From: an uncultured virus (IMG/VR IMGVR_UViG_3300028746_000001)
Lineage: Duplodnaviria > Heunggongvirae > Uroviricota > Caudoviricetes
Length of the DNA stretch: 64,000 bases
Reading direction: 5' to 3' (one strand)
IMG/VR virus record: IMGVR_UViG_3300028746_000001
In this document: positions 26,585 through 59,745 of the stretch, piece by piece
Numbering within the stretch: position 1 is the stretch's first letter
Layout: every line of letters begins with the position of its first letter
Position numbers and translations under genes: made by a program
The notes under the pieces: model-generated
Database searches by the model: none
Told to the model about the DNA's origin: nothing
Seen by the model: the letters and a program-made list of their open reading frames with translations, nothing else

Positions 26585-26655
26585 TATTGGGACAAATTCC
26601 GATCACCGCTATTGGGACAATTTCCGATCATTCTTATTGGGACATTTCCCGATCA
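26585..26655. repeat. Three auxiliary iterons (21 bp, 25-bp period) downstream of rep
   Basis: TATTGGGACA(A/T)(A/T)T(T/C)CCGATCA at 26585, 26610 and 26635; reverse complement of the origin iterons. Confidence 0.9.
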
Positions 26656-27444
26656 AAACAGGTGCTGCTGAGCGCTGTTTCCGAACCGGAACTCAAGCCC
26701 GATAACCTTCCGGCCCGCTTTTCGGGTATCCCACTCGATTTTATAGCCGTCCTTTTCTGTCAGTTCCTTCACAGCGGGCTCAATAATCCGGCGTCGCATG
26801 TCCTTGAAGTTCTTCCGGCAGCTTTCGCTCGCGTCCATGGCGTGCGCGAACTCATCGATATCGATCCTGAGAAGCCCGGTGGACTTGAACTGAGCGATTA
26901 GCTCCAGCAGCCGCCAGGAAAACACTGAACGCAGCGCGGCGGCCTGAGACAGCTTGTATGACGTGAATTGCTCGCGCAAAAGCACCAAGTGCGGCACAAC
27001 CTCATGCCAGAAAGCGATCTCGATATAGCCCTCTCCGTTCGAATACGTCGCACGGCCGACCCAGCGCATTTTTTCCTGCTTTGGGCCTTTCGGGCCGGGC
27101 TTCTCGTAGCGAATCCATCGCTCTGAAAGCGTGCTCTCTGCCGCCTTCAGTTCCTCGTAGGCAGTCGTCGGGTCAATCTGGAACGTCTCGGCGAATTCCA
27201 GCGCGGAAATTCGCGCTACGAGAGGCTTATTCATGTCCGGAACGCGCTTGCTATCAATCTTCGAAATGCAGCAGGCCACAACGCGCTTCTCTGCCAGCGA
27301 CAGACCTTGTGCGGCACGAGTAAGGACGTTGCTCATATTGACATGGCGCTCTGACGCCGTAGCAGGTAATGCATCGGGAAGGGTTTCCGCGAGCGCAGAG
27401 ACAATCACTTCTGGCTCAGGGACAATGACTTCTGACAGGGTCAT
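26653..27444 (-). CDS. Plasmid replication initiator, Rep3/RepB family
   Basis: SNVLTRAAQGLSLAEKR..., FTSYKL, SWRLLELI, RRRIIEPAVKEL, GRKV; likely start ATG at 27444. Confidence 0.92.
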   Translation of the reverse strand: MTLSEVIVPEPEVIVSALAETLPDALPATASERHVNMSNVLTRAAQGLSLAEKRVVACCISKIDSKRVPDMNKPLVARISALEFAETFQIDPTTAYEELKAAESTLSERWIRYEKPGPKGPKQEKMRWVGRATYSNGEGYIEIAFWHEVVPHLVLLREQFTSYKLSQAAALRSVFSWRLLELIAQFKSTGLLRIDIDEFAHAMDASESCRKNFKDMRRRIIEPAVKELTEKDGYKIEWDTRKAGRKVIGLEFRFGNSAQQHLF

Positions 27445-27452
27445 GGGCAATG

Positions 27453-27484
27453 AAATGGGACAAGTTAGGTACGATGTCCCATTT
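27453..27484. promoter_or_regulatory. Inverted iteron half-sites (Rep autoregulation operator)
   Basis: AAATGGGACA-N12-TGTCCCATTT just upstream of the rep ATG. Confidence 0.75.
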
Positions 27485-27541
27485 GTACCTTGGAGTCTGA
27501 AAAACGTCAACGTTTTCCACGGCTTACGGCTCAATTTTGGC

Positions 27542-27824: not shown

Positions 27825-28142
27825 TCATTCGTGGCCGTGCTTCTTTTTCAGCCTTGCCAGTTCGGCACGCGCCCCGGCTTGGACGATTTCGGTTATCGGG
27901 ATGCCGGAAAGCTTCGAAAAATCGCTTATTTCCCAAAACAGAGCTTCGTCCATTCGGAGGTTGACTGGGCGAGTCGCCGGTTTTCGGGGGAATTTGGGAA
28001 ATCCGGGGCTCACAGCAGCCTCGCGGCCCTCCCCTGCACCGCTGGCCTCAACTGGCTCGTTCGAGGCCGCTGGGGGCGATTCTGCGGCGAGCACAAAGTC
28101 CATTGGGTTCCGGAAACCGCCCTTCTTGTCTGCGGCGCTCAT
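27825..28142 (-). CDS. Ribbon-helix-helix partition protein (ParG-like)
   Basis: C-terminal PVNLRMDEAL...ITEIV; coupled to parA. Confidence 0.75.
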   Translation of the reverse strand: MSAADKKGGFRNPMDFVLAAESPPAASNEPVEASGAGEGREAAVSPGFPKFPRKPATRPVNLRMDEALFWEISDFSKLSGIPITEIVQAGARAELARLKKKHGHE

Positions 28143-28819
28143 TCTGCGACCTCCTCTTCCTCGTCGGCTAATACCGGGTTTTCAATGATGCGGCTAAGCG
28201 CGACCATTTCATCAATAGCCTTGGGGTCTGGCGAACTGAATTCGGTCACCGCGCGCCCTTCGCTCGCGACCATGCGAAAAGCCTTCCGCTCACTGAGAAA
28301 CGTCTTCAAAAGGCGGTATTGCTTGAGCCCTGAGAGGGACTCGCGCATATCGGCGGCCTCGCTCGAATGCGCGTTTGTCGGCACGCGATTCATGATCGCG
28401 ACGGCCTTGAGATCGTGGTTGAATCCGCGCGCCTGCTCCACGAGCCTGTCCATTTTTGCGAATGTGTAAATATCAAACTGGCTCGTCTGCGCCGGCGTGA
28501 CGATAATCCCGGCCACCAGCATCGCGCTCCGAACCTCTGGTGAGTCGGCTCCGCGCGTGTCGATGATGATGTCATCGTACTTCGGGATAAGCGCCCTCAC
28601 CTGCGAGTCAAGCCTCTCGCCAAAGATGGAGACGCACGTGATGGCGGGCTTAACCTCCTCTGCGGCACGGATGTTCACCCATAACGTCGCGGACGCTTGC
28701 GTGTCCGCGTCTACCAGCAGCACGTCGCGCCCCTTGCCGGCCAGCATTGCAGCGTAGCTGACCGCCAAGGTGCTTTTCCCACTGCCGCCCTTCTCCCCGC
28801 CAAACAGGACAACACTCAT
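28139..28819 (-). CDS. parA: ParA partition ATPase (type Ib)
   Basis: KGGSGKST, LLVDADTQ, YDDIIIDT; no N-terminal HTH. Confidence 0.93.
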   Translation of the reverse strand: MSVVLFGGEKGGSGKSTLAVSYAAMLAGKGRDVLLVDADTQASATLWVNIRAAEEVKPAITCVSIFGERLDSQVRALIPKYDDIIIDTRGADSPEVRSAMLVAGIIVTPAQTSQFDIYTFAKMDRLVEQARGFNHDLKAVAIMNRVPTNAHSSEAADMRESLSGLKQYRLLKTFLSERKAFRMVASEGRAVTEFSSPDPKAIDEMVALSRIIENPVLADEEEEVAE

Positions 28820-37259: not shown

Positions 37260-38246
37260 ATGGCGGCTACAGATTGGATAAAGATGCGAGTGAATCTTTG
37301 GCATGACCCAAGGGTTTCTGCGGTCTGCGATAAGACGGATGAAAGCGAGGCGGCGGTCATCGGCGGCCTGTATTGGCTATGGGCCACTGCCGACGCGCAC
37401 AGTTCAACCGGCTTCATGCCGAACCTCACGACAAAGACAATTGACCGCAACACGGGCGTCAAAGGATTAGGTGCGGCGCTCGCTGATATTGGCTGGATTG
37501 CAATTAAGGATAACGGCATCCAAATCGAAAAGTTTGATGACCATAACGGTGCATCCTCGAAGAAACGTGCAGAGGACGCTAAGCGCAAAGCCATAGCGCG
37601 CGCGGCTAACGGTGAGACTGGCGACATGTTTCCGCCTGAGCCGCCCCCGGGTATTTGTCCGCAAAATTCTGGACAAAAAGCGCCGAATGAAGGACAGGAA
37701 GCGACAAGTGTCCAAAGTAGTGCAGACGATTCGCGCCGAAGTGCGGAGCTAGATAAGAATGAGAATAAGAAGAAGAGTAAACCCAAACCTTCTTCGCCTT
37801 CGGCTCAGAAGGTTAGCGCTCAGCAAAAAGAACTCGAAGGCATGGGCGTCGAGCCGCAACACGCTGCCGATTGGCTGAAGGCTCGCAAGGCAAAGAACCT
37901 CGTTGCCACGACAACGGCTTTTGAGCAGGCCGCATCCGAGGCCGCAAAACTTGGCTGGACATTCCCGGAAGCAATCGCCTACGCAGCCGGTAAGGGCTGG
38001 GGTGGCTTCATGGCGAAGTGGGTCGAGAACGATGGCGATACGGGTCACTACGGCGCGCGCAACAGCGCAGTGCAAAGCCAGCCTACTCAGTCGATTCGCA
38101 AGAACAAGGCGCAAGCGCGCCACGACGGGCTTGATGCTGCCGCCGCAGAGTTCGCTGCAAACATGGCGGCGAAGTACGGAACTGAGCCCCCTGCGGACGC
38201 CGGATATGTGCCGCCCAGCGATGGACAAACTATCGACATGGAATAA
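37260..38246 (+). CDS. Phage lytic replication initiator (putative)
   Basis: WIKMR..L..DPRV...LYWLW..AD N-terminus; WLKARKAK...GWGGF domain; O-like position. Confidence 0.7.
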   Translation: MAATDWIKMRVNLWHDPRVSAVCDKTDESEAAVIGGLYWLWATADAHSSTGFMPNLTTKTIDRNTGVKGLGAALADIGWIAIKDNGIQIEKFDDHNGASSKKRAEDAKRKAIARAANGETGDMFPPEPPPGICPQNSGQKAPNEGQEATSVQSSADDSRRSAELDKNENKKKSKPKPSSPSAQKVSAQQKELEGMGVEPQHAADWLKARKAKNLVATTTAFEQAASEAAKLGWTFPEAIAYAAGKGWGGFMAKWVENDGDTGHYGARNSAVQSQPTQSIRKNKAQARHDGLDAAAAEFAANMAAKYGTEPPADAGYVPPSDGQTIDME

Positions 38247-38251
38247 CGGGG

Positions 38252-38914
38252 ATGACACCTAACGACGCACTGAAGTTCGGGCAGATTCTAAGCCGCACGT
38301 TGAAGCTTTACCCGTTCGGTGAGGCCACGCCGGAAACGATTGAAACGTGGTTCGAGATTCTGAAGCAATACCCGCTTGAAGACATCGCACTGGCGTTGAA
38401 CCGCCACGTGGCAGACCCGGATAAAGGCAATCGTCAGCCACTGCCGTCCGACGTGACGGCGCACCTTGCAGGCGGCGCAGCGACGCGCGGCATGCGCGCA
38501 TGGACACTGGTCGAGAAAGCGGTTCGTTCGGTGGGCCATTACCGCTCAGTGTGCTTTGACGACGCGGTTACGAACAAGCTGGTCGATGAAATGGGCGGCT
38601 GGGTGAAGCTGGCGGGAACGAAGACCGAGGAGGATCTGAAGTTTCGCGGAATTGAGTTCGCCAAGCGCTACCAGGGCCTGATGCAAACGGGCGGGGTAGG
38701 TACGGACTACCCGCCGTACCTGATCGGCGCGGCTGAAGCGCACAACGCGCTTGAGGGCGTCGCGGTGGATCCCCCGGCGCTTATCGGCGACCCGGTGAAG
38801 GCAAAGGCAGTGCTGGAGCGCGCGCAGGGTTCTTCCACATTACGCGTGACGCAGGCGAACGACATGAAGGCGCTCGCGGCCGGCGCGATGAAACTTATCA
38901 AGGGCGGTAAATGA
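38252..38914 (+). CDS. Replication accessory protein (DUF6475-like)
   Basis: W...L..YPL...P.PSD; AW..V.KA...VG.Y.SV.FDD...MGGW; follows the initiator. Confidence 0.65.
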   Translation: MTPNDALKFGQILSRTLKLYPFGEATPETIETWFEILKQYPLEDIALALNRHVADPDKGNRQPLPSDVTAHLAGGAATRGMRAWTLVEKAVRSVGHYRSVCFDDAVTNKLVDEMGGWVKLAGTKTEEDLKFRGIEFAKRYQGLMQTGGVGTDYPPYLIGAAEAHNALEGVAVDPPALIGDPVKAKAVLERAQGSSTLRVTQANDMKALAAGAMKLIKGGK

Positions 38915-39414
38915 GCGTGCTTCGTATGACGCCCGAGCAGTATCAAGCGCACCTTGACCGCATGAAAGTCTCGAAGCCTGACGCCAGTGACGTGCCAGTG
39001 TTCGAGAAGAAAACCGGCTTGGCTATCGTCCTCGCTGACGAGCCCGTGGCCGCGCCACAAACGCCGCTGCAGCGCATGCAGGCTTTGGGCCGCCTGAAGC
39101 AGGGCGAAATGAACGGGACCGAGGCTGCATACGACAAGGTTCTGGCCGAACGCAAGCGCATCGGGGAGATCGTCTGGTACGCGTTCGAGGCGATCACGTT
39201 TGTTCTGCCAGGTGGCGTCCGCTACACGCCTGATTTCATCGTTCAACTGGCGACCGGTGAGCTGGAGGCGCATGAGGTCAAGGGATTCTGGCAAGACGAT
39301 GCGCGAGTGAAGATCCGGCTCGCGCAGGGAATTTTCCCGTTCCGCTTCATCGCGATCATGGGCAAGAAAAAGAAGGGCGTCTACACGTGGACCTTTGAGG
39401 ACTTTTGGAAATGA
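38911..39414 (+). CDS. DUF1064-like PD-(D/E)xK endonuclease
   Basis: MN.TE..Y, YTPDF, EVKG...DARVKI. Confidence 0.75.
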   Translation: MSVLRMTPEQYQAHLDRMKVSKPDASDVPVFEKKTGLAIVLADEPVAAPQTPLQRMQALGRLKQGEMNGTEAAYDKVLAERKRIGEIVWYAFEAITFVLPGGVRYTPDFIVQLATGELEAHEVKGFWQDDARVKIRLAQGIFPFRFIAIMGKKKKGVYTWTFEDFWK

Positions 39415-39620
39415 GCGCATTCAGGGATGACGTTGATTGGCGCTGGATTCGCGCGTGGTGCGCGGTAGACGCTTTCATCAAAAATGGCGGCCATATCCCA
39501 TTCGCCTACTACTCCGAGATTTTCGATCTTGACGAGGATGAGACGAAAGAGTTGTTCCACAACGTAGCGGTAAAAATGAACGTACGCATCACGGTCCTCC
39601 CCGACCCGACCTATCACTGA
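39411..39620 (+). CDS. Hypothetical protein
   Basis: Coupled to the upstream gene. Confidence 0.5.
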   Translation: MSAFRDDVDWRWIRAWCAVDAFIKNGGHIPFAYYSEIFDLDEDETKELFHNVAVKMNVRITVLPDPTYH

Positions 39621-39629
39621 TCGAGAAAA

Positions 39630-40208
39630 ATGACCGTGCCGAAAAACGAAGACAAGAGCCTGACGTACGTGACGCTTGATGGCATCCCGGGGAAGTATTT
39701 CACATGCCCAAGCTACGGGCTGATGAGCGTTGGATCGTGCGCGCGCAACTTCACCGATGCGCCGGGCGCCGTGCGCAGTGGCCGCCTGCAGAAGTGCATC
39801 GGCTGCGAGCACGGCCGTGCCCATGCGGGCGTTCCAAAGATTGAGGAAGCGCCGAAGGCTCTGCAATCTCTGCAGTATCGCCCGGTCTGCTGCCGCTGCC
39901 GGCGCGATGGCACGACGCAGGGAACGCGCCTGATCGGAAAGCTTCGCCTGGTGCGCGCTCACTCTATTTGCGTATCGTGCTTTAACCGCGAGAAGGAAGT
40001 GATCGCCGGTCGTAACTCGAAGGGCGCGAAGCCGAAAAAGTGGGGCGGTCTCTTCTACACGCGTGCCGCGTACGTCGCCGACGGGAAGGCTATCGTGGTT
40101 GACATGACCGATCCGGTTATCGACCGCATCGAGGTTGCTCTGACGATGATTCGCCGCGGCCATAAGTCGGTCGTGTGGGCACGTCCTTCCGTTTCGCGCG
40201 GGGAATGA
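39630..40208 (+). CDS. Cys-rich zinc-binding protein
   Basis: Several CxxC pairs. Confidence 0.65.
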   Translation: MTVPKNEDKSLTYVTLDGIPGKYFTCPSYGLMSVGSCARNFTDAPGAVRSGRLQKCIGCEHGRAHAGVPKIEEAPKALQSLQYRPVCCRCRRDGTTQGTRLIGKLRLVRAHSICVSCFNREKEVIAGRNSKGAKPKKWGGLFYTRAAYVADGKAIVVDMTDPVIDRIEVALTMIRRGHKSVVWARPSVSRGE

Positions 40209-40209
40209 C

Positions 40210-40587
40210 ATGAACCAAATGGACCTGTTCGGCGAAGAGTCTGGCGTGCCGCTCAATGAGGCAATTAAGCGCCGTCGCAGCGCGCCCGGCTGGCAGCTTG
40301 CGCCGCACGCCTGCCGTCATTGCTTCGGTCGCGTGCTGTCGCGCTCGGTAAGCGGTGTAGTGATCGAGGTTCGCTGCGCAGAGTGCGGTGAGCACTCCCA
40401 AGGGCCTGCCGACGAGATTTGCGCGTGCGGTGCGGACTGCGGCGATATCGGCTTCGTCCTGAAGTGCGTTCGCAATCCTAATGTGACGAAGGAGAACCCG
40501 CACGAGGTCCTGATTCGCGAAGTGCCGCGCCCGGTCGATGAGCGCGAGCGCGCGGTGCAGAAGATGGTCCGGCTTGGCGACTTTTAG
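40210..40587 (+). CDS. Cys-rich zinc-binding protein
   Basis: CRHC, CAEC and CACG motifs. Confidence 0.65.
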   Translation: MNQMDLFGEESGVPLNEAIKRRRSAPGWQLAPHACRHCFGRVLSRSVSGVVIEVRCAECGEHSQGPADEICACGADCGDIGFVLKCVRNPNVTKENPHEVLIREVPRPVDERERAVQKMVRLGDF

Positions 40588-40666
40588 TTCGGCCATAAAT
40601 CTGCTTTACAAGAAGACATACGCGCAGTAGATTCTGCGCAAGAACAACTTTTCAACGAGGAAAAGC

Positions 40667-41404
40667 ATGAGCGAAATTGTTCCGTTTAGTTTCGATGGCG
40701 CAGAAGTGCGCTCGGTAGTGGTAGACGGCGAGCCGCACTTTTTTGCGCGCGACGTTGCACTGACGCTTGGCTATGCGAATCCGCTGGAGGCTGTGAGGAC
40801 GCACTGCAGGGGAGTGAGGGAATTCCTCACCCCTACGGCTGGCGGCAATCAGAACGTCCGCGTCATCCCCGAGCGCGACGTGTACCGCTTGGTAATGCGC
40901 TCGAAGCTCCCGGCTGCCGAGCGTTTTGAAGAGTGGGTTGTCGGCACGGTGCTGCCGTCGATTCGCAAGACGGGCTCATATAGCGTCGCGGCTCCCGCGA
41001 TTCCGAGAACTTACGCCGAGGCGCTCCGTCTCGCTGCCGACCAAGCCGAGGAGATCATCCAGAAGGCCGCGCAACTCGAAGCGCAGAAGCCTGCCGTCGA
41101 GTTCGTTGAGCGCTACGTCTCCGCCGAGGGTAACAAGGGTGTGCGTCAGGTCGCGCAGTTGCTCAACGTGCCGAACGAGCGCGAGTTCATTCAATGGCTC
41201 ATCGACTCAGGCTTCATGTACCGGCTCGAAGGCGTGCTTACGCCGATGGCAAGCCAACGCCACACGGGCCGCTTCGTCATCAAGGCTGGAGTGAGCCGTA
41301 CGAGCGAGCACGCATACAACACGGCCAAGTTCACGCCGAAGGGCGTCGAGTGGATCGCCGGGGAGTGGGCGAAGCACCAGGTCCGCCATCCGGAGTTTGC
41401 ATAA
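40667..41404 (+). CDS. Bro-N / KilAC antirepressor
   Basis: DGEP.F.ARDVA..LGY.N...YRL.MRS.LP.AERFEEWV...VLPSIRKTG; P.VEF...FTPKG..W. Confidence 0.9.
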   Translation: MSEIVPFSFDGAEVRSVVVDGEPHFFARDVALTLGYANPLEAVRTHCRGVREFLTPTAGGNQNVRVIPERDVYRLVMRSKLPAAERFEEWVVGTVLPSIRKTGSYSVAAPAIPRTYAEALRLAADQAEEIIQKAAQLEAQKPAVEFVERYVSAEGNKGVRQVAQLLNVPNEREFIQWLIDSGFMYRLEGVLTPMASQRHTGRFVIKAGVSRTSEHAYNTAKFTPKGVEWIAGEWAKHQVRHPEFA

Positions 41405-41484
41405 TCCCGCCACTTTCCCTTTTCGAGTCGTGATTTCAACCTGAAGCCTACGGTTGAAACACGATAGGAAAGGGAGAGAGCGCC

Positions 41485-41775
41485 ATGCGCGCAACTGAGT
41501 TTGTAGATGAAGTGGCCCGCAATACGCGGTTGACGACTCCCCAAGTCGAAGAGTGCTTGAGAGCCGTCCGCGATCTGTGCGAGCGCGAGGTCCGCGCCCA
41601 CGGCAAGGTCCGCATCCCCAAGCTTGTCGATATCAAAATCACGCAGGTCTCCGAGCGCATCGTGCGCAATCCGAAGACTGGCGCTGAGTGGCTCGAAGGT
41701 CCGAGCACGCGCCTCTATGCAAAGCCATCCCCGATCTTTACTCGCCGCGTCAAAGGTGAGAAGCAAAGCATCTAA
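41485..41775 (+). CDS. HU/IHF-family DNA-binding protein
   Basis: ERIVRNPKTG arm; 96 aa, basic. Confidence 0.8.
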   Translation: MRATEFVDEVARNTRLTTPQVEECLRAVRDLCEREVRAHGKVRIPKLVDIKITQVSERIVRNPKTGAEWLEGPSTRLYAKPSPIFTRRVKGEKQSI

Positions 41776-41979
41776 GGCGGACGTTGCTTGGCGCGCTTGG
41801 GGATGTGTTCGCGCCGCTCCAGAATAAACCTCCCCAGCTAATGGTGTTCGTGTCGCGGGTTGGTCATTGGCTCCCGGCATTCCTCCATGCAGTGCATCGC
41901 ATGAGAACAGGCTTTGGCGGACGGCGGGTAAATAGCCGCACCTAACTTTTCCTTTGCGTACCAGTCTTTTTCTTTAAAA

Positions 41980-42014
41980 AGTGCTTGCGCAGCAGATTAC
42001 GCGTTTGATATAGT
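41980..42014 (+). promoter_or_regulatory. Promoter of the RNA island, overlapped by an operator
   Basis: TTGCGC-N18-TATAGT; AGTGC-N7-GCAGA at 41980-41996. Confidence 0.55.
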
Positions 42015-42225
42015 TCTCCCAACGCAGAACGCAGCAGAATTTTTCTTCCGGTCCTTGCGTGTGGATGTGCCTCTCCGGGTTGCTACCACATGCGGGATGA
42101 ATGCCAGGAGTATCCGGATAGGACTGGCCTCCAAAGGGCGACGGTGAATTAGCGTTGAACGACGTACAACGAGCACGCCCCATAGCTCCGTCCGCGTTGA
42201 CCGGCGATACGGTCACAAGTTTCTA

Positions 42226-42317
42226 TGCGGGGTCTTCTAGTGGCTCAGGAAACGGCTAGGCAGCCCGGATTTATCCGGTCCCCGGCTGAGACGCAGGTTC
42301 GAATCCTGTCCCCGCAC
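42226..42317 (+). ncRNA. tRNA-like RNA with extended anticodon arm
   Basis: Acceptor TGCGGGG/CCCCGCA; D arm TTCT-AGTGGCTC-AGGA; T arm GCAGG-TTCGAAT-CCTGT; no 7-nt anticodon loop. Confidence 0.7.
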
Positions 42318-42320
42318 AAA

Positions 42321-42985
42321 GTTCCGTCGATGGGCTGACAACCTACTGTCTTAAAAACGGCGTTGCTGCTCTGAGCCATCTAGGAGCAGTCGGGGGCCTA
42401 ACCCGTAAAGATGGGCTTAACGTCAGAGCCGAGGATTTAGGCTAAACGGTAGCGCGGTCCAAGAGGGTTGTAGCTTGGAAGACTGCACTTCTCGTTGGGC
42501 GTGACTTGCTGGTAGAGAGAATCAGCCTTCTGTGAAACATTGCCGATCGTGTTCGCGGACAGTAATTGATAGGCGGTTGTCGGAGCAACCTATTGAATCC
42601 CGACTGGGGGCCGTAAGCTCCCAAAGAATTGCACGGAAGTGCTCAGGATGGTCTGGGGAGTCCGACGAGGGCCGCGTCTCGGTAAAAACGCGGGAACGAT
42701 TATTCCCGGGCTGATTTGGGCAGGGTGGCGGGGGTGCAAACCTCGTCGCGCAGGGTTCGATGTCCCTGACTGGGAGCCAGAATGCGTAAGCCGCTGGTAT
42801 GAGAAGGCGAGGTAGGACGACGGGTGGCCTTGAAAACCACTGGCGAGTCTGAGAAGCCGAAGCACAGAGAGGGTGGAGCATTGTCATCCGAGACTATAAG
42901 CGGCGTCCGACCCACGACACGGGTCAACAAATTGCAGCAGTAAAGAGGTCGCTTGATGATGACTAAGCCCCACTCGACCGGGAAC
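42321..42985 (+). ncRNA. Candidate large structured ncRNA (~665 nt)
   Basis: 5' and 3' ends pair (16 bp with bulges); dense hairpins, GNRA loops and long-range loop complementarities; no credible ORF. Confidence 0.7.
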
Positions 42986-43026
42986 ACGTACATCCGTCTT
43001 GCCCGACGTTAAAGGGCCTCGAATTT

Positions 43027-43111
43027 GTGCAGGTGGGTGAGTGGTTAAAACCAGTGGATTGTAAATCCGCCGTCTCTGACTTCGTAGGTTCGAATCCTAC
43101 CTTGCGCACCA
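43027..43111 (+). tRNA. tRNA-Tyr(GTA)
   Basis: GTGCAGG/CTTGCGC acceptor; GTGGA-TTGTAAA-TCCGC anticodon arm; long variable arm; GGTTCGAATCC; ACCA end. Confidence 0.92.
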
Positions 43112-43561
43112 AGAATAATGCTTCCCGCTCAGATTGTACCGAGTGCATGCCTTCCGGTCGGGACACAGGAAAGGCCCCCAAGCGCCGGGGTATTAAAGCA
43201 GCGTGGTAGCTGCTAGTAGCGCCTTGAAAAGCCGCGAGTGGCTCGCGAATGAGCCGCCCGCAAAGCGCATTCTCTGAGTGCTCTTTGCGGGTCTGGATGA
43301 CTACCCTTCAAGACTGACCTTATAAATGTCCATGAAGGGCGCATTTGATCCCGCGTTATTACGGATTCGCGTGGCCTGCGTTATCGGGCCGCCCACGAAG
43401 CGCATTTTATGAGTGTTCTTCGTGGGCAATATGCCGGATGTCCGTAACCACGAAGCCCATAAATCGGAGCCTTACGGAACCCGTAGCAGGCGGGGAGACC
43501 AGTGAGAGTCTGGAGCAACGAAAAACGCAGCGTGGTCCCGGCTATACGGTTCACAAGTTTT

Positions 43562-43637
43562 CGCCGGGTAGCTCAGGTGGTAGAGCGGCAGCTTGAAAAG
43601 CTGTGCGTCGGAGGTTCGAATCCTTCCCTTGCGGCCA
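43562..43637 (+). tRNA. tRNA with GAA anticodon (Phe), atypical acceptor stem
   Basis: TAGCTCAG.TGGTAGAGC; GCAGC-TTGAAAA-GCTGT; GGTTCGAATCC; GCCA end. Confidence 0.85.
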
Positions 43638-43872
43638 GAATTCCGGGGCACGCTGATAGACCGGTGGGGGAATCAAAGCCCAGCATGTCTATTCGTTCTT
43701 GTGAGTTATGACGAGACATAAACTCTACGGCGTTCGTGCCGTATCTCGCGAACCGGCTGGCTTCGTCAAACGCCCTGCGGCGCAACGCAGTTGGAATGAT
43801 TGGGTGGTGCGAAGTCCTGGTCCTTCCGCCAGAATTTAGAACCCGTAGTGTAAGGCGACTTCGCAGCCGCCA

Positions 43873-43967
43873 GTGGTAACGCCGTGAGGCGCACCTGACT
43901 TGCTGGTGGAAAGTAACCAGCACCTTCAAGCGTGCCCAGTTGTGTCGGTTCGACTCCGGCAGGCCAC
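43873..43967 (+). ncRNA. tRNA-like RNA with extended central arm
   Basis: GTGGT/GCCAC closing stem; CGCC-GTGA-GGCG; TGCTGGT/ACCAGCA arm; T arm GTCGG-TTCGACT-CCGGC. Confidence 0.5.
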
Positions 43968-44138
43968 GACCTAAAAGCCAAGCAAGGGATCAGCGGGCAC
44001 ACTTGAGGGGATCTAGCCTTTGCGTTACCCCATACGCCTTTGGATGCTAGATGCCAAAGAGACGCCATAGTATTAGGCCGCTCTCGCATGCTGCGTACGC
44101 ATGCAAACCTTTCTAATGACTCTCTAGGATTCCTAAGC

Positions 44139-44474
44139 ATGGATACGATTCAACAAGCCGCTGGCGCGGTCGAAGGCGATGTCGCTGCAGTTCAAACTGC
44201 TGACGCAACGAGCGGCGCTGTAGCGGCCGCAGTGGTCGGCGCGACGGAAGTTGGTGGTGTTGCCGCCCAAGTGATCGACGCAGCCGCTCAAGGCGCTACG
44301 GAAGCCGCTGACGCTGCACCGGGCATCGAGGCTGAAGCTAAAAACATGACCGACAGTGTTTATTCGAGGGCGGATACGCTGTTCAGCAAGGTCAAAGAAG
44401 AGATCGAAGGTCTTGTTGGACTCGCGGGCAGCGACTGGCATCTGCTGAAGGAAGCCATCGTCAAACACCTGTAA
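44139..44474 (+). CDS. Ala-rich hypothetical protein
   Basis: MDTIQQAA... after AGGA. Confidence 0.6.
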   Translation: MDTIQQAAGAVEGDVAAVQTADATSGAVAAAVVGATEVGGVAAQVIDAAAQGATEAADAAPGIEAEAKNMTDSVYSRADTLFSKVKEEIEGLVGLAGSDWHLLKEAIVKHL

Positions 44475-44554
44475 GTCGATGTAGGACCGCTGTATCGCAC
44501 CAAGCAGTAAGGCGCCCGGAGATCCCGGGCGTCTCCATTTCTACGCGAGGAAAC

Positions 44555-44995
44555 ATGGAACTGAAGATCAAAAAGCTGGACCCGCGCGCGGTCGTTCCGG
44601 AATATGCCACGGCCGGCGCAGCGTGTTTCGATCTGGTGGCGCTTCCCGGTGAGCCGTTTGAGTTGCATCCCGGGGATAAGCATGCATGCATTTTTCGCAC
44701 AGGGCTCGCGTTCGAAGTGCCGCCCGGCTGGGTGATGTCGATCTACAGCCGCAGCGGCCACGGATTCGCGAAAGCGATACGTCTCTCGAACTGCGTAGGG
44801 CAGATTGATTCGGACTACCGTGGTGAGGTCAAGGTTGCGCTGCGTTGCGATGGCGACGTGCGCGGGCATATCAATGGCGGTGATCGGATCGCGCAGGCTC
44901 GGCTTGAGCGTGCCGACCAGGTGCAGTTCGTGGTTGTAGAGGAGTTGACGGACACAGCGCGCGGCTCTGGTGGTTTCGGGAGCACTGGATCGTAG
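44555..44995 (+). CDS. dut: dUTPase (trimeric)
   Basis: AACFDL, RSG, GQIDSDYRGE, GDRIAQ and RGSGGFGSTG motifs. Confidence 0.96.
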   Translation: MELKIKKLDPRAVVPEYATAGAACFDLVALPGEPFELHPGDKHACIFRTGLAFEVPPGWVMSIYSRSGHGFAKAIRLSNCVGQIDSDYRGEVKVALRCDGDVRGHINGGDRIAQARLERADQVQFVVVEELTDTARGSGGFGSTGS

Positions 44996-45006
44996 CCTGC
45001 AGAAAC

Positions 45007-45034
45007 AACAAAGCCCGGTTTCCCGGGCTTTGTT
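45007..45034. terminator. Bidirectional terminator
   Basis: ACAAAGCCCGG-TTTC-CCGGGCTTTGT between convergent genes. Confidence 0.75.
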
Positions 45035-46169
45035 CATGGCTTCGGTCGCCGGCGGTGCTTTGCGTGACGAACCTCGATGCCTGCCGCGCGCCGCTCGGCG
45101 CATATCTCTGCGTAGAGCGGTGAGACGTAGATTGCAACATGCGTGAGCTTGCAGAATTTCGCCGCGGCGGGGACCTTCTCCCCGGCCCGAATCATTGCGA
45201 TCGCCGACAGCATGCGTTCGCTGGTTTTGTTCATGCGCGCTTGGCTTCGATCATGGCCACGAGCGCCACGTCATAGCAGAGATAGTCGCCCCAGTGAAAG
45301 TTGGCGCTGATGGCGTGCAATTCGGGACTGTCGTCCCACTCTTGAATCACGGCGTGCAGAACCGGGAAACTGTCCGGGTCCGAGTGGCGTGCCTTCACTT
45401 CACGCCAGTACGCATTGAATTCATCGCGCACCTTCACGGCTTCGAGGAACGAGGGCGCGGCCACGATATCGTCGGGCCCTTCGATGTTGAGCATCCACAG
45501 CTTCGTGAGTTGCGCTTCACGCGAGTAGCGAACGCCAGGCACCGAATCGAAGTTGCCCATGGAGAGCGGTTTGCGGGCCTGATGGCCGATCGTGAGGATG
45601 ATGCCGTCCTCTTGTGCGCAGCGGATAAGCTGCAGCAGCTTGACGTGGTATGCGTATTCCTTGCCGATGAAAACTTTGCTCACAACGCGACTCCGTATTG
45701 AGTTTCTTCTATGTCGCCTACCGATACGGTGACGACGGGGTGAATGCGGCCAGCGATCCACAGCTTGAGCGTGGCGCCGTTCTTCAGTGCTTCCAGTTCC
45801 TCTTCCGTCGGCTCCCACGCGGAGACCATGAACGGGCCGTTTTGGGTCATTACGTCGCGGATTGGCAGGGCGTTGCATTCGCCATAGCTGCCATCCCAGC
45901 CCACTGGAGCGCCGAGCGCCCGCGTCTCGCCTTCAATTCGTTTGATTTGCATACTTCTCCCGCTCCTCTTTGGTCCAGTGGTGGTCCGCGAAGTGCCGTG
46001 CGGCCTCGCTGATCGGAACCCACTCGTAGCATTGCCGCCCGTTACTGAAGACAAAGCAGCCTTGCGAGCGCTGAAACACGCGGATCTGCTCGCCGTGTTT
46101 CTTCGTCACCCTGCGGTCGCCTTGCTTCGGCTGCTTCCGCGCCGGGCCATACGAAATATGGATGCGCAT
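45034..46169 (-). CDS. Run of four small hypothetical genes (45034-45234 HTH-like; 45231-~45683; 45680-45952; 45933-46169)
   Basis: Overlapping stop/start junctions on the minus strand; individual starts approximate. Confidence 0.5.
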
Positions 46170-46585
46170 TACAGGTCCTGGTTGTAGCGCACGTAGCCCT
46201 GCGCCGCGACCTTGTCGTAGAACGGGCGGATCGGATTGTTGTTCTCGGTCACCCAGTAGACGCGGCCCCAGCCGTGTGCCTTGCCGAGACTCGTCAGGTA
46301 GCCGAGCAACATGCCGGCGATGCCGCGACCGCGAAATTCAGGGCGCACATAGAGCGAATCCATGTAGCAGATCGGCTTTGTCGCGAAGGGAAAATCGTGG
46401 AACGTGTACTGCATGAATGCGACCGGCTGGCCGTCTTCAATCGCCACTACGCAAAAGTCACGCGGGTTCGGGGCATTGAAGCGAGCCCATGCGCGCGGGC
46501 ATACGTTCGCGAGCGCGGGTATGTAGTCGGCAACCATTTGCTGCCAGCCGTCGTAATCGGCTTGTGTTGCGTAGCGAATCTGCAT
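46169..46585 (-). CDS. GNAT acetyltransferase
   Basis: LYVRPEFRGRGIA...N...FY. Confidence 0.9.
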   Translation of the reverse strand: MQIRYATQADYDGWQQMVADYIPALANVCPRAWARFNAPNPRDFCVVAIEDGQPVAFMQYTFHDFPFATKPICYMDSLYVRPEFRGRGIAGMLLGYLTSLGKAHGWGRVYWVTENNNPIRPFYDKVAAQGYVRYNQDL

Positions 46586-47660
46586 TTAGTGGCCCAATCC
46601 ATTTCCGTTGAGAAGGATGTCGTCAACTGAGCCGCGCGATTGAAGTCCGAGGGTCTCGCTATGGCCTACGCACTTGCCATTAACGACGAAGCCCGCGGCG
46701 ATCGCGTGAGCATCCCAATTGCGTTTCCAGTTCTGAGGCGTGCCGCGACGCACGGACTGAATTCCTTCCATCATTCCGTCATGGTTAAGTGAACGAGGGA
46801 AGACGAAAATCGCTTCCTGTTCTTCGCCCTTTTCGTCGGGCATCGTGACCACGATGTATTTCATTGTTCGGCTCCCACGTCGGCGAACGGGTAAGCGGAA
46901 CCCGTGCGCATCTTGTGTGAGTCCACAAGCGCCCGGATGCGCGGGTATGCTTCAGAGGTTATGTCGCAGCCCGCCGCCAGGTTCAGAAGCGATCCAATGC
47001 GTTGCAGGGCCATGTTCGCGCCGGATGCTGCATTGACCATGCCGAGCAAGCGCTGCGGATGGATGATTACCGGGCACGTAAGGCTTTCAAGATAGTCCTC
47101 GCCATCGCCTTGATAGGTCCAGAAGTTACCGTCCATCGCCATTTGGCCCATGCGGCTCATGAACTCAGTGCGGTTCTTCTGCTGCGGCAGCTTGGGCGCT
47201 TGGCCGAGCGGGGGACGCCATAGTTCTGCGCCCTCCAGGTACGTATAGCCCTTCGCCTCCAGCGTGCGGATCGCGGCGATCGCGGCCGGGATGCTGTTCG
47301 GTTTCTTTTCGGCTGTGATGCTCATTTGATTACCTCGTATCCATCGGGAATTTGTTTAAACTTCTGGCGCACTTCGATCACTTCGAACTCGGCGCTCGGC
47401 GTGTGATACCAAGCGCCAATGTGGTTACCCTCACGAGCCGCCTTGAACTGCTCAATCGCCTCTTCGCGCGTTGCAAAAACGATCACGCTGCTGGGTGGCG
47501 AATCGCGGGTAACCTTCGGCGTATAGAAGTCGGAAAACGGCTGGCCCCACCAATAACCCTCGCTCTCGGTGAGCCACGCGGGCGTGCCCTTCTTCGTCAT
47601 GACGCTCTTGTCATGGGCGATGGCCTCTTCGCACTTGTATAGGATCGCAAACTGAGTCAT
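46586..47660 (-). CDS. Three hypothetical genes (46586-46864, 46861-47325, 47322-47660)
   Basis: Translationally coupled ORFs. Confidence 0.6.
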
Positions 47661-58936: not shown

Positions 58937-59249
58937 GGTCATTCAAAAATTCCTTCTTCGTCCTCGCGGGGTTGTGCATACCGAACTGCTCCCGATTGGC
59001 TCATCGGTGACGCGTATCGCCATTGAGGACGGCTCTCCGTACGCATGGGTATGGATGGACCCGGCCGCGCCGCGGGACTGGCTGGTGGACTTTCTCGTCG
59101 TCTGCACGGGGGACCAAGTAGAGGACGCCGATCTCTATTGGCCGGTCAACTCATTCGCCGCTAACGATCTGCGCGCGACCATCTGGCATGGCCTGTCTCG
59201 CTGGCGCAAACAAGTCACCACATTACTGGAGCAACACGCGCATGGCTGA
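58929..59249 (+). CDS. Hypothetical protein (paralogue 2)
   Basis: MAKVIQKFLL...LP.GS...W...DP...TG. Confidence 0.6.
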   Translation: MAKVIQKFLLRPRGVVHTELLPIGSSVTRIAIEDGSPYAWVWMDPAAPRDWLVDFLVVCTGDQVEDADLYWPVNSFAANDLRATIWHGLSRWRKQVTTLLEQHAHG

Positions 59250-59745
59250 CAACATCGAATTAATCATGCCGCGCATGGCGAACGTCGCGGACCTCGTGCC
59301 GTACGGCCGAAACGCGCGCACGCACTCGGACGAGCAGGTCTCGCAGATTGCCGCCTCGATACGCGAGTTCGGATGGACGAACCCGATCATTCTTGGCACT
59401 GGCAATCGCATCCTCGCAGGGCACGGGCGCCGTCTGGCTGCGTTGCTCTTGCGTCTGAAGCGCGTGCCGGTCCTCGATGTCTCGCATCTGACCGACGAGC
59501 AGCAGCGCACGTACATCATTGCCGACAACAAGCTGACGCTCAACGGTGGGTGGGATCTCGAAGTGCTGAAGCTGGAAGTGCTCGAACTCGGCGCGCTCGG
59601 CGTTGACCTGGAGATTACGGGGTTCTCGGACGACGAACTGAAGGACTTGATCGATCCTGAGATTGACCCGCCAGAGGCCGAAAAGGGTGATGACGACCGT
59701 CCGACGTGCCCGCATTGCGGCCAGAAGTACAACGAGCAGCCGTAA
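59242..59745 (+). CDS. ParB/Srx N-terminal domain protein
   Basis: L.PY.RNARTHS..QV.QIAASI.EFGWTNPI...AGHGR...IADNKL; C-terminal CPHCG. Confidence 0.85.
   Translation: MADNIELIMPRMANVADLVPYGRNARTHSDEQVSQIAASIREFGWTNPIILGTGNRILAGHGRRLAALLLRLKRVPVLDVSHLTDEQQRTYIIADNKLTLNGGWDLEVLKLEVLELGALGVDLEITGFSDDELKDLIDPEIDPPEAEKGDDDRPTCPHCGQKYNEQP

What the first reader, a model, noticed from the sequence alone, without database searches (positions are those of the whole stretch)
42703..42779. tRNA-like domain ending in CCA embedded in the large RNA
Seen: TTCCCGG (42703) pairs with CTGGGAG (42770) followed by CCA. There is a T-arm-like CAGGG-TTCGATGT-CCCTG with an 8-nt loop, and a GCAA-capped ~10-bp hairpin where the anticodon arm would be. 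A competing local hairpin GGGAA/TTCCC (42692-42707) could switch it off. Known: some GOLLD RNAs carry tRNAs inside their variable region. Inference: an excisable cargo or an RNase P/Z processing signal.
Basis: partly seen in the sequence, partly recalled or inferred. Interest (0 to 1): 0.7.

Follow-up and report, generated by a model that had tools for sequence, protein, structure and literature searches.

The report
Non-decoding tRNA look-alike in phage array
A 76-base stretch of an uncultured soil phage folds like a tRNA and ends in CCA, but it mixes features of two different tRNAs and fails the standard tRNA tests, so it is probably a tRNA-shaped piece cut out of a long non-coding transcript rather than a working decoder or part of a giant RNA.

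Summary
The cloverleaf is real and is not chance. With the ARAGORN threshold relaxed by 5%, the 64-kb window gains only two calls. One is this element (42704-42779, "Cys gca"). Both lie on the + strand of a 2.3-kb gene-free stretch that also holds tRNA-Tyr and tRNA-Phe. Simulated DNA gives about 0.006 such calls for a stretch this size.

It is not a normal tRNA. Rfam gives 14 bits at best. The acceptor end is of the tRNA-Asn type (UCCC...GGGA-G-CCA). The 7-nt loop reads GCA (Cys), but the discriminator is G, whereas the two Burkholderiaceae tRNA-Cys genes I checked have U. The D stem is three-quarters G·U, and the anticodon-side stem extends to 9 bp.

No GOLLD, ROOL or other large-RNA family matches. 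The surroundings are a mosaic of tRNA or tRNA-like cassettes and conserved structured spacers. These are shared with Burkholderia phage Mica and Burkholderiaceae prophages, and none of those carries this element.

Best reading (about 50%): a non-decoding tRNA-shaped unit, excised by RNase P at the 5' end and by RNase E plus exonucleases at the CCA|GAAU tail.

Earlier notes of this scan describe similar phage tRNA mimics on other DNA. No diverged homologue and no RNA data were found.

The parts
42704..42779 (+). tRNA-like gene. Acceptor 42704-10/42769-75, D-like region 42711-28, 9-bp stem 42725-33/42741-49 with 7-nt loop GUGCAAA (42734-40), T arm 42751-68 with an 8-nt loop, discriminator G42776, CCA 42777-79.
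   Evidence: Called by ARAGORN at -ps95 and -ps90 as 'tRNA-Cys(gca)' but not at default. Cloverleaf MFE. Best Rfam hit is tRNA-Sec at 14.0 bits against a gathering score of 47.
42776..42783 (+). GCCAGAAT tail (discriminator, CCA, GAAT). The same tail follows tRNA-Phe (43634-41) and a 3'-end remnant (43828-35). tRNA-Tyr has CCAAGAAT.
   Evidence: Repeat family D3. 3 of the 5 matches in the window lie here on the + strand, against 2.49 expected for the whole window on both strands.
42672..42693 (+). Leader hairpin: CCGCG(T)/(A)CGCGG stem with loop CTCGGTAAAA, ending 10 nt before the element.
   Evidence: The stem is kept with different pairs in Caballeronia pedi prophage L125, in G080 L131 and on a variant contig of run X24 (C72>G, C73>T with G93>A, G94>C, G92 deleted). 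ViennaRNA does not predict it on its own.
42692..42707 (+).
   Evidence: Present in the MFE and centroid of the 309-nt context fold. Its 5' arm is altered on the X24 variant contig.
41776..44039 (+). Gene-free stretch between an HU-like gene (41485-41775) and the next + strand ORF (44040-44474). It holds five tRNA or tRNA-like units, all on the + strand.
   Evidence: ORFs inside it lack the GC1/GC2/GC3 pattern of the phage's genes and have no PHROG hits. tRNA calls are.
42226..42317 (+). tRNA-like unit without CCA. It has a good acceptor and T arm and a long closed hairpin in the anticodon position.
   Evidence: ARAGORN -ps95, Rfam tRNA-Sec 21.4 bits, fold.
43027..43111 (+). tRNA-Tyr(GTA), with encoded CCA.
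   Evidence: ARAGORN default. Rfam 53.3 bits.
43562..43637 (+). tRNA-Phe(GAA), with encoded CCA.
   Evidence: ARAGORN default. Rfam 56.5 bits.
43894..43971 (+). Weak tRNA-like unit with an 8-nt 'tcaa' loop. Its T arm matches that of phage Mica's annotated pseudo 'tRNA-OTHER'.
   Evidence: Called by ARAGORN only at -ps90. BLAST and alignment to Mica.
42605..42633 (+). First copy of a unit made of a hairpin plus AAAGAATTGCA. A second copy lies at 42909-42937. The element lies in the roughly 275 nt between them.
   Evidence: In G080 and C. pedi one such unit runs straight into the block equivalent to window 42938-43004.
43252..43392 (+). Conserved structured spacer motif shared with phage Mica, the C. 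pedi prophage and G269.
   Evidence: BLAST. RNAalifold gives 35 pairs, 7 of them with changes on both sides, in 4 sequences. No Rfam match.

Best explanation
The element is a tRNA-derived, tRNA-shaped gene. It is one of five same-strand tRNA or tRNA-like units in a 2.3-kb non-coding array of a temperate phage-plasmid from peat, whose host is inferred to be in the Burkholderiaceae.

It keeps the parts that tRNA-processing enzymes read: a 7-pair acceptor stem stacked on a 5-pair T stem, a GTTCGA T loop, U at position -1, an encoded CCA, and the same GAAU tail as its bona fide neighbours. It has lost a coherent decoding identity. The acceptor and discriminator are of the Asn type, the loop triplet is of the Cys type, the D stem is weak, and the anticodon-side stem is 9 bp.

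The proposed mechanism is inferred, not shown. The array is transcribed with the flanking + strand genes. RNase P cuts between 42703 and 42704. RNase E cuts in the GAAU tail, and exonucleases trim back to CCA. The element is therefore released like a tRNA, and in the process it sets the 3' end of the upstream structured leader and the 5' end of the downstream spacer RNA. It most likely does not decode.
For: - Cloverleaf with CCA.
- ARAGORN calls it when the threshold is relaxed by 5%, and the only other new call in 64 kb is 390 nt upstream on the same strand. The false-call rate at that threshold was 18 per 6.4 Mb of simulated DNA.
- It shares orientation, an encoded CCA and the GCCAGAAT tail with tRNA-Phe.
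- The 8-nt T loop GGGUUCGAUgUCCC is a natural variant. Six viral tRNAs that carry it are called by default ARAGORN and score 49-60 bits in Rfam.
- The acceptor end UCCC...GGGA-G-CCA is the tRNA-Asn type. Of 106 viral stretches ending GGTTCGA-N11-GGAGCCAGAA, 67 are full tRNA-Asn(GTT) genes.
- The two Burkholderiaceae tRNA-Cys genes I retrieved (from G080 and G002, genomes that carry related prophages) have U73 and the loop CUGCAAA. The element has G73 and GUGCAAA.
- The stretch is non-coding and contains spacer motifs with compensatory changes, so RNA structure is under selection in this locus.
Against: - No diverged homologue of the element itself was found, so there is no covariation or conservation evidence for it.
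- No RNA data exist, so transcription and cleavage are untested.
- No sigma-70-like promoter and no + strand terminator was found.
- In a 309-nt context the predicted fold loses the acceptor stem. The same happens to the real tRNA-Tyr and tRNA-Phe with 100-nt flanks, so this does not discriminate.
- A plain decaying tRNA gene with no remaining role would look the same.
- The 7-nt loop with U33, GCA and A37 leaves decoding formally possible.
Confidence: 0.5

Rival explanations
1. It is an inert relic: a tRNA gene, probably of Asn descent, that is decaying inside the array and no longer serves any purpose, not even as a processing mark.
For: It scores below threshold in both tRNA detectors. It has mixed identity marks, a G.A pair at the base of the acceptor and a D stem of one A-U plus three G.U. 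It is absent from every relative of the locus. The array holds other remnants, such as 43815-43836. Earlier notes of this scan reached this reading for other phage arrays.
Against: The acceptor stem, T arm, CCA and tail are the best-kept parts, while decay should be even across the element. In isolation the acceptor pairs have probabilities of 0.87-1.0, higher than those of the real tRNA-Tyr and tRNA-Phe. Phage genomes rarely keep 2.3 kb without function, and neighbouring spacers show compensatory changes.
Confidence: 0.25
2. It is a working, unusual decoding tRNA that reads UGY (Cys) codons. It would join tRNA-Phe (UUY) and tRNA-Tyr (UAY) as a third G34 tRNA for U-starting codons.
For: The loop is 7 nt with U33, GCA and A37-A38. 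The dimensions are close to the canonical 7/4/5/5 layout, with 73 nt plus CCA. The 8-nt T loop occurs in good tRNAs. The three anticodons GAA, GUA and GCA form a tidy set.
Against: There is no RF00005 match, and the best clan hit is 14 bits against a gathering score of 29 for tRNA. It has G73 where the tRNA-Cys genes of G080 and G002 have U73; U73 is the main CysRS identity mark by recalled literature. It has C8 and G32 instead of the usual U8 and Y32. The 9-bp stem competes with the D stem. It has no sequence similarity to the G080 or G002 tRNA-Cys or to any phage tRNA.
Confidence: 0.1
3. It is a decoy or spare part against host defences that target tRNAs: a tRNA-shaped RNA that soaks up or resists an anticodon nuclease.
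For: This rests on analogy only. Phage tRNAs are reported to counter tRNA-cleaving defences (recalled literature, not read here). The element has an altered loop (G32) and a lengthened stem.
Against: There is no defence or counter-defence gene context nearby. There is no conservation data. Nothing ties the GCA loop to a known nuclease in this host group.
Confidence: 0.07
4. It is an embedded domain of a single GOLLD-like giant RNA, displayed or carried by the large RNA.
For: GOLLD genes lie in tRNA arrays and can contain a tRNA or pseudo-tRNA (passages of PMC6582537, and of bioRxiv 10.1101/2024.12.08.627333). The element sits between two copies of a hairpin-plus-AATTGCA unit that is single in relatives, as an insertion would.
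Against: No GOLLD, ROOL or other large-RNA model matches at E<=10 in the window or at E<=1 in five relatives' loci. The shared blocks occur in different orders and combinations in Mica, C. pedi, G080, G022 and G269, which fits separate modules rather than one fold. The 309-nt context fold is no better than shuffles (z = -0.19).
Confidence: 0.05
5. It is an attachment-site scar: a copy of the 3' end of a host tRNA-Asn gene left by, or used for, integration.
For: GGAGCCAGAA ends of tRNA-Asn are common at the ends of viral contigs.
Against: No integrase was found in the window, and the phage carries Rep3, ParA and ParB like a plasmid prophage. The identity to tRNA-Asn is limited to the acceptor end. 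The element is a full cloverleaf with its own 5' strand. A 340-nt query matched none of 401 genomes of the order.
Confidence: 0.03

Closest known systems
Degenerate or pseudo tRNA genes in phage tRNA arrays (for example the pseudo 'tRNA-OTHER' annotated in Burkholderia phage Mica)
   Same: Same strand and spacing as real tRNAs, a good T arm and acceptor, and sub-threshold scores. Mica's unit lies in a related non-coding region.
   Different: This one keeps a 7-nt anticodon-format loop and an encoded CCA, and it combines an Asn-type acceptor with a GCA triplet. It shows no sequence similarity to Mica's unit beyond generic tRNA features.
GOLLD RNA with an internal tRNA or pseudo-tRNA in tRNA arrays (PMC6582537 and bioRxiv 10.1101/2024.12.08.627333, passages read)
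   Same: A phage-borne non-coding locus among tRNA genes, with a tRNA-like unit inside a structured RNA region.
   Different: There is no match to the GOLLD model or to any large-RNA family. The locus behaves as shuffled modules. Whether a long RNA exists is unknown.
Small stable non-tRNA RNAs of the T4 and T5 tRNA clusters (recalled, not read here)
   Same: Non-decoding RNAs that are co-transcribed with phage tRNAs and cut out by the tRNA-processing enzymes.
   Different: There is no sequence relation, and expression of this element is untested.
tRNA-like processing marks: mascRNA at the MALAT1 3' end and mitochondrial tRNA punctuation (recalled)
   Same: A tRNA shape used as an RNase P cut mark that defines the ends of neighbouring RNAs. 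This is how I think the element works.
   Different: Those are eukaryotic or organellar systems that use RNase Z at the 3' side. Here the CCA is encoded and an RNase E-type tail follows.
tRNA-like domain of tmRNA
   Same: Acceptor, T arm and CCA without a decoding anticodon arm.
   Different: ARAGORN finds no tmRNA. There is no tag reading frame, and the two halves are contiguous.
Bacterial tRNA-Asn (acceptor end) and tRNA-Cys (loop)
   Same: UCCC...GGGA-G-CCA as in 67 viral tRNA-Asn genes. The GCA triplet followed by A37-A38 is as in the tRNA-Cys genes of G080 and G002.
   Different: Neither identity set is complete: there is no GUU anticodon for AsnRS and no U73 for CysRS.

Membership tests
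Canonical tRNA (Rfam RF00005 / ARAGORN) | Scores above the detectors' thresholds | tested here: not met
   Not called by default ARAGORN. No RF00005 row even at E<=10 on 161 nt. The best clan member is tRNA-Sec at 14.0 bits against a gathering score of 47. It is called only at -ps95.
Canonical tRNA (Rfam RF00005 / ARAGORN) | Cloverleaf with a 7-bp acceptor, a 5-bp T stem and a GTTCRA T loop | tested here: met
   Six standard pairs plus a G.A in the acceptor. T stem CAGGG/CCCTG. The T loop TTCGATGT is one nt longer than usual. The same 8-nt loop occurs in 6 well-scoring viral tRNAs.
Canonical tRNA (Rfam RF00005 / ARAGORN) | D arm of 3-4 standard pairs, with U8 and a 2-nt and a 1-nt connector | tested here: not met
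   C at position 8. The D stem is A-U plus three G.U, with 3-nt and 2-nt connectors in ARAGORN's drawing. The MFE replaces it with a 3-bp hairpin and a 9-bp anticodon-side stem.
Canonical tRNA (Rfam RF00005 / ARAGORN) | 7-nt anticodon loop with U33 and a purine at 37 | tested here: met
   The loop is G-U-GCA-A-A (42734-42740). Position 32 is G, which is unusual (recalled).
tRNA-Cys | U73 discriminator together with the GCA anticodon | tested here: not met
   The element has G73. The tRNA-Cys genes of G080 and G002 end ...gcc-t-cca. The importance of U73 for CysRS is recalled from the literature.
tRNA-Asn | GUU anticodon together with G73 | tested here: not met
   G73 and the UCCC/GGGA acceptor end match, but the loop triplet is GCA.
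GOLLD / ROOL large phage RNAs | Match to the family covariance model | tested here: not met
   No match at gathering score, nor at E<=10 in 38000-47000 and 41780-44140, nor at E<=1 in five relatives' loci. That both families are in Rfam 15 is recalled and was not checked.
GOLLD / ROOL large phage RNAs | Phage-borne and next to tRNA genes | tested here: met
   Phage genes surround the locus, and tRNA-Tyr and tRNA-Phe lie within it.
tmRNA tRNA-like domain | Detected tmRNA with a tag peptide frame | tested here: not met
   ARAGORN's combined tRNA and tmRNA scan found none in the window.
Phage attP / tRNA 3'-end fragment | Long identity to a host tRNA 3' end, with an integrase nearby | tested here: not met
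   0 of 401 genomes of the order matched 42596-42935. None of the 150 listed matches in 396 genomes of the family overlapped the element, though 220 weaker matches were not listed. The window has Rep3, ParA and ParB and no integrase.
Non-decoding phage tRNA mimics / processing marks | Released from the precursor by RNase P and 3' processing | not testable with these tools
   No RNA run holds the locus. This needs RNA end mapping or in vitro cleavage.
Non-decoding phage tRNA mimics / processing marks | Shape kept by compensatory changes in relatives | tested here: inconclusive
   Only identical copies were found. One variant contig covers 42622-42746, and only 5 of its 10 substitutions are listed. 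None of the listed ones lies in the element.

The most novel reading that the evidence does not exclude
The element belongs to a still undescribed class of non-decoding phage tRNA mimics. These would have an Asn-type acceptor, a T arm and an encoded CCA, with a stem closed over the anticodon position. They would occupy interchangeable 'slots' behind conserved leader hairpins in modular arrays of structured RNAs in Burkholderiaceae phages and phage-plasmids. There they would act as built-in RNase P and RNase E cut marks that release the neighbouring structured RNAs, or as uncharged tRNA-shaped effectors.
Probability: 0.3. Interest if true: 0.65.

Novelty: new member of a known kind. Interest (0 to 1): 0.4.

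Why it matters
Standard annotation counts phage tRNA genes and drops everything below threshold. This phage has two canonical tRNAs and three tRNA-shaped units in one 2.3-kb non-coding array. The spacers of that array are conserved across Burkholderiaceae phages, show compensatory changes, and are absent from Rfam.

If the tRNA-shaped units are processing marks, they show how phages make several small structured RNAs from one transcript using host tRNA enzymes. They would also give exact predicted RNA ends to test. If they are only relics, they show how tRNA cassettes turn over in phage arrays. In either case the GOLLD label should not be applied to this locus.

Tried and rejected
- Expression: no RNA holder is listed among the 24 runs that hold the stretch; all are peat DNA metagenomes. 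Expression could therefore not be examined.

- Searches for a diverged homologue of the element all returned only identical copies or unrelated DNA:
  - exact 30-mer in viral contigs (L002 is 100% identical);
  - loop-plus-T-arm gapped pattern;
  - 20-mer in metagenome contigs (the two true hits are 100% identical);
  - blastn against phage records (5 weak hits at E>=0.7, none in a tRNA);
  - blastn against plasmids (only tRNA-Tyr and tRNA-Phe);
  - 401 genomes of the order (0 matches).

- The flanking HU-like protein found no relatives' loci: only its own contig in viral contigs, none in genome contigs, and no tblastn match in phages.

- One genome-contig hit, in Mucilaginibacter (L128), was a chance match inside a coding region.

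- Context folding was dropped as evidence, because the real tRNA-Tyr and tRNA-Phe also lose their acceptor stems with flanks.

- The promoter and terminator scan gave nothing usable on the + strand.

It describes a tRNA mimic on DNA that shares 15 of 148 short words with 42596-42930. Look-ups with 42700-42785 and 42786-42935 returned nothing. The shared words therefore probably lie in the leader, 42596-42699.

- Searches were needed to find Burkholderiaceae tRNA-Cys genes; the first pattern missed them.

Full report
WHAT IS THERE. Window 42703-42779 reads UUCCCGG GCUGAUUUGGGCAGG GUGGCGGGG-GUGCAAA-CCUCGUCGC G CAGGG-UUCGAUGU-CCCUG A CUGGGAG CCA. Folded alone, its MFE and centroid are a four-way cloverleaf at -35.1 kcal/mol.

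Two details need correcting. ARAGORN's register is 42704-10 paired with 42769-75 (U-A, three C-G, G.U, G-C, G.A), then G42776 as discriminator, then CCA. Second, the "GCAA-capped 10-bp hairpin" is really a 9-bp stem (42725-33/42741-49) closing a 7-nt loop, GUGCAAA. That is the anticodon-loop format: U at the second loop position, then GCA, then A, A. A GCAA tetraloop would leave only five pairs.

IS IT MORE THAN CHANCE? Folding energy alone is not special: z = -1.38, and 20 of 200 shuffles fold as well. Detection and position are what count.

- Default ARAGORN finds only tRNA-Tyr (43027-43111) and tRNA-Phe (43562-43637) in the window.
- With the threshold lowered by 5%, the whole 64 kb on both strands gains exactly two calls: 42226-42317 and 42704-42779, labelled "tRNA-Cys(gca)". 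At -10% it gains 43894-43971 and one call elsewhere.
- In 6.4 Mb of Markov-simulated sequence the three thresholds gave 1, 18 and 207 calls. That is about 0.006 expected at -5% for a 2.26-kb stretch.
- All five units are on the + strand.
- 5 of the window's 18 GGTTCGA matches, and 3 of its 5 GCCAGAAT matches, lie on the + strand of this stretch.

SETTING. The window comes from a phage.

- It has a tail sheath, baseplate and fibre genes, an endolysin, a CI-like repressor, an O-like replication protein, Ant, RecT and a dUTPase.
- It also has a Rep3 initiator, ParA and ParB, and I saw no integrase. It therefore looks like a plasmid prophage.
- Identical DNA occurs in one IMG/VR contig, in two JGI contigs, and in 24 peat DNA runs holding 77-100% of the stretch's sampled words.
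- The stretch 41776-44039 lies between an HU-like gene and the next + strand ORF. Its ORFs have flat GC1/GC2/GC3 values, whereas the phage's genes show about 0.6/0.45/0.72. They have no PHROG hits.

NOT GOLLD. At gathering score, only tRNA matches in the window. At E<=10, in 38000-47000 and in 41780-44140, the only other rows are weak ones that I take as chance: tRNA-Sec on 42225-42317 at 21.4 bits, sX12, osmY and a plastid 3'UTR motif. On 161 nt around the element, the best hit is the tRNA-Sec model at 14.0 bits against a gathering score of 47. GOLLD genes sit in tRNA arrays and may contain a tRNA or pseudo-tRNA (passages of PMC6582537, and of bioRxiv 10.1101/2024.12.08.627333). The premise does not apply to this locus.

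IDENTITY OF THE ELEMENT.

- T arm. GGGUUCGAUgUCCC, with one extra loop base, is a natural variant. Six viral tRNAs (Glu, Asp, His) carry it, are called by default ARAGORN, and score 49-60 bits in Rfam.
- Acceptor end. UCCC...GGGA-G-CCA is of the tRNA-Asn type. Of 106 viral stretches matching GGTTCGA-N11-GGAGCCAGAA, 67 are complete tRNA-Asn(GTT) genes. One example printed starts tccc and ends gggagcca.
- Loop triplet. It is GCA (Cys). The tRNA-Cys genes of two Burkholderiaceae genomes that hold related prophages have U73 and the loop CUGCAAA, and they show no sequence similarity to the element, which has G73 and GUGCAAA.
- D arm. Position 8 is C. The D stem is one A-U plus three G.U with odd connectors. 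The nucleotides that would form its 3' strand and the variable loop pair with each other, which extends the anticodon-side stem to 9 bp.

The half that processing enzymes read is intact. The half that synthetases and the ribosome read is incoherent.

RELATIVES OF THE LOCUS, BUT NOT OF THE ELEMENT. Blocks of the spacers recur in five places:

- Burkholderia phage Mica, between its integrase and an annotated pseudo "tRNA-OTHER";
- a Caballeronia pedi prophage contig;
- genomes G080, G022 and G269 of the same family.

The blocks come in different orders and beside different tRNAs. G022 has Gly, Met, Glu and Trp. G080 has Met. C. pedi has the start of a Met-like tRNA at its contig end. The C. pedi region also holds a Proteo-phage-1 RNA at 55 bits.

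The block at 43252-43392 aligns in four sequences with 35 predicted pairs, 7 of which changed on both sides.

The hairpin just upstream of the element (42672-42693) keeps its stem with different pairs in C. pedi and G080. On a variant contig of run X24 the changes are C72>G and C73>T, matched by G93>A, G94>C and loss of G92. In three other viral contigs the same hairpin precedes a protein gene, so it is not a tRNA-specific leader.

In G080 and C. pedi, a single hairpin-plus-AATTGCAG unit runs straight into the block equivalent to 42938-43004. The window has two such units (42605-33 and 42909-37), with the element in the roughly 275 nt between them. The element therefore sits in a cassette-like insertion or duplication.

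No diverged copy of the element was found by any of the searches listed under Tried and rejected. The X24 variant contig covers 42622-42746. None of its listed changes falls in the element, but only 5 of its 10 substitutions are listed, so I draw no conclusion from it.

HOW IT MOST LIKELY WORKS.

Shown: the shape, the encoded CCA, the shared tail, the array context, and the non-coding nature of the stretch.

Inferred: the array is transcribed with its + strand neighbours. RNase P recognises the acceptor and T-stem stack, the T loop, U(-1) and CCA, and cuts at 42703/42704. RNase E cuts in the A/U-rich GAAU that follows CCA here, after tRNA-Phe and, as AGAAU, after tRNA-Tyr. Exonucleases then trim back to CCA. 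The enzyme preferences are established knowledge that I recall; none of this was tested. The element would then be released as a tRNA-sized RNA, and that release would define the ends of the flanking structured RNAs. RNase Z is unlikely because the CCA is encoded (recalled).

I put about 0.5 on this non-decoding, processed-unit reading, 0.25 on a relic with no role, 0.1 on a real if odd decoding tRNA, and the rest on the decoy, GOLLD-domain and att-scar readings. Context folds do not help. With 100-nt flanks the acceptor stems of the real tRNA-Tyr and tRNA-Phe vanish as well.

EARLIER NOTES OF THIS SCAN (AI notes, treated as leads only). One note describes a 1-kb phage locus on other DNA that shares words with 43240-43400, read as a string of separate RNA modules including Proteo-phage-1. 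This agrees with what I found independently. Another note describes a 79-nt CCA-ended mimic with an Asn-type acceptor on DNA that shares words with 42596-42930. I could not retrieve that DNA, and look-ups with the element alone and with its 3' flank returned nothing. Several other notes report anticodon-less tRNA mimics or tRNA relics in phage arrays.

VERDICT. This is a real, non-random tRNA-shaped gene in a phage tRNA and ncRNA array. It is not a GOLLD domain, and it is probably not a decoder. It is a new member of a known kind (degenerate or mimic tRNAs of phage arrays). Its interest is moderate, raised somewhat by the conserved structured spacers around it, which are absent from Rfam.

Noticed in passing
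window 43252-43392 (partial second copy at 43388-43426): A structured spacer motif of about 130 nt: a covarying hairpin followed by the nearly invariant GTCTGGATG..TACCCTTCAAGAC..TAAATGTCC..GGCG. It is shared with Burkholderia phage Mica, the Caballeronia pedi prophage and genome G269, and it has no Rfam match.
   Followed up: partly
window 42672-42693; L125 2663-2690; L131 (reverse) about 890-912; L179, L180, L183 at 1201-1224: A hairpin with the conserved loop CTCG(G/T)TAAAA and a covarying stem. It precedes a tRNA-like unit here, a Met-like tRNA in C. pedi, and a protein gene in three other viral contigs. Its function is unknown.
   Followed up: partly
window 42605-42623; Mica L003 3472-3492 and 3608-3629; several in L125, L131, L141: Recurrent short hairpins with a CGUAA (or CGUUA) pentaloop and covarying stems, scattered through these phage non-coding regions.
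   Followed up: no
window 42226-42317: A second tRNA-shaped unit with a perfect 7-bp acceptor and a standard T arm. It has a long closed hairpin in place of the anticodon arm and no CCA. It is preceded by GGCGATACGGTCACAAGTTTC, which is nearly the same leader as the one before tRNA-Phe (43540-43561).
   Followed up: partly
window 43105-43230: The spacer that follows tRNA-Tyr also follows tRNA-Gly in G022 (L132 1484-1626) and lies about 80 nt after tRNA-Met in G080 (L131 reverse 448-574). A conserved trailer therefore travels with different tRNAs.
   Followed up: partly
window 26653-27534 (-), 28139-28819 (-), 59188-59745 (+): A Rep3-type initiator, ParA and a ParB-like protein, in a phage with tail, lysis and CI/Ant genes and no integrase seen. 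This is probably a plasmid prophage (phage-plasmid).
   Followed up: no
L125 1836-1915 (Caballeronia pedi prophage contig): A Proteo-phage-1 RNA (Rfam RF03044, 55 bits against a gathering score of 42) lies in the homologous non-coding region of the relative. The window has no such match.
   Followed up: no
L040, L049, L055, L068, L095, L101 (viral contigs): Well-scoring viral tRNA-Glu, tRNA-Asp and tRNA-His genes share an 8-nt T loop (UUCGAUgU). This looks like a recurrent natural variant of the T loop.
   Followed up: partly
window 42508-42620: In one peat run (X24) a contig replaces these 113 nt with 23 other letters. Other variant contigs differ by roughly one base in four or five over 42890-42929, and roughly one in eight over 43698-43771. 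The spacers are the variable part of the locus between strains.
   Followed up: no
window 43815-43836: TCCTGGTCCTTCCGCCAGAATT resembles the 3' end of tRNA-Phe together with its tail (73% to 43621-43642), with no cloverleaf upstream. It is probably a remnant of a lost cassette.
   Followed up: partly
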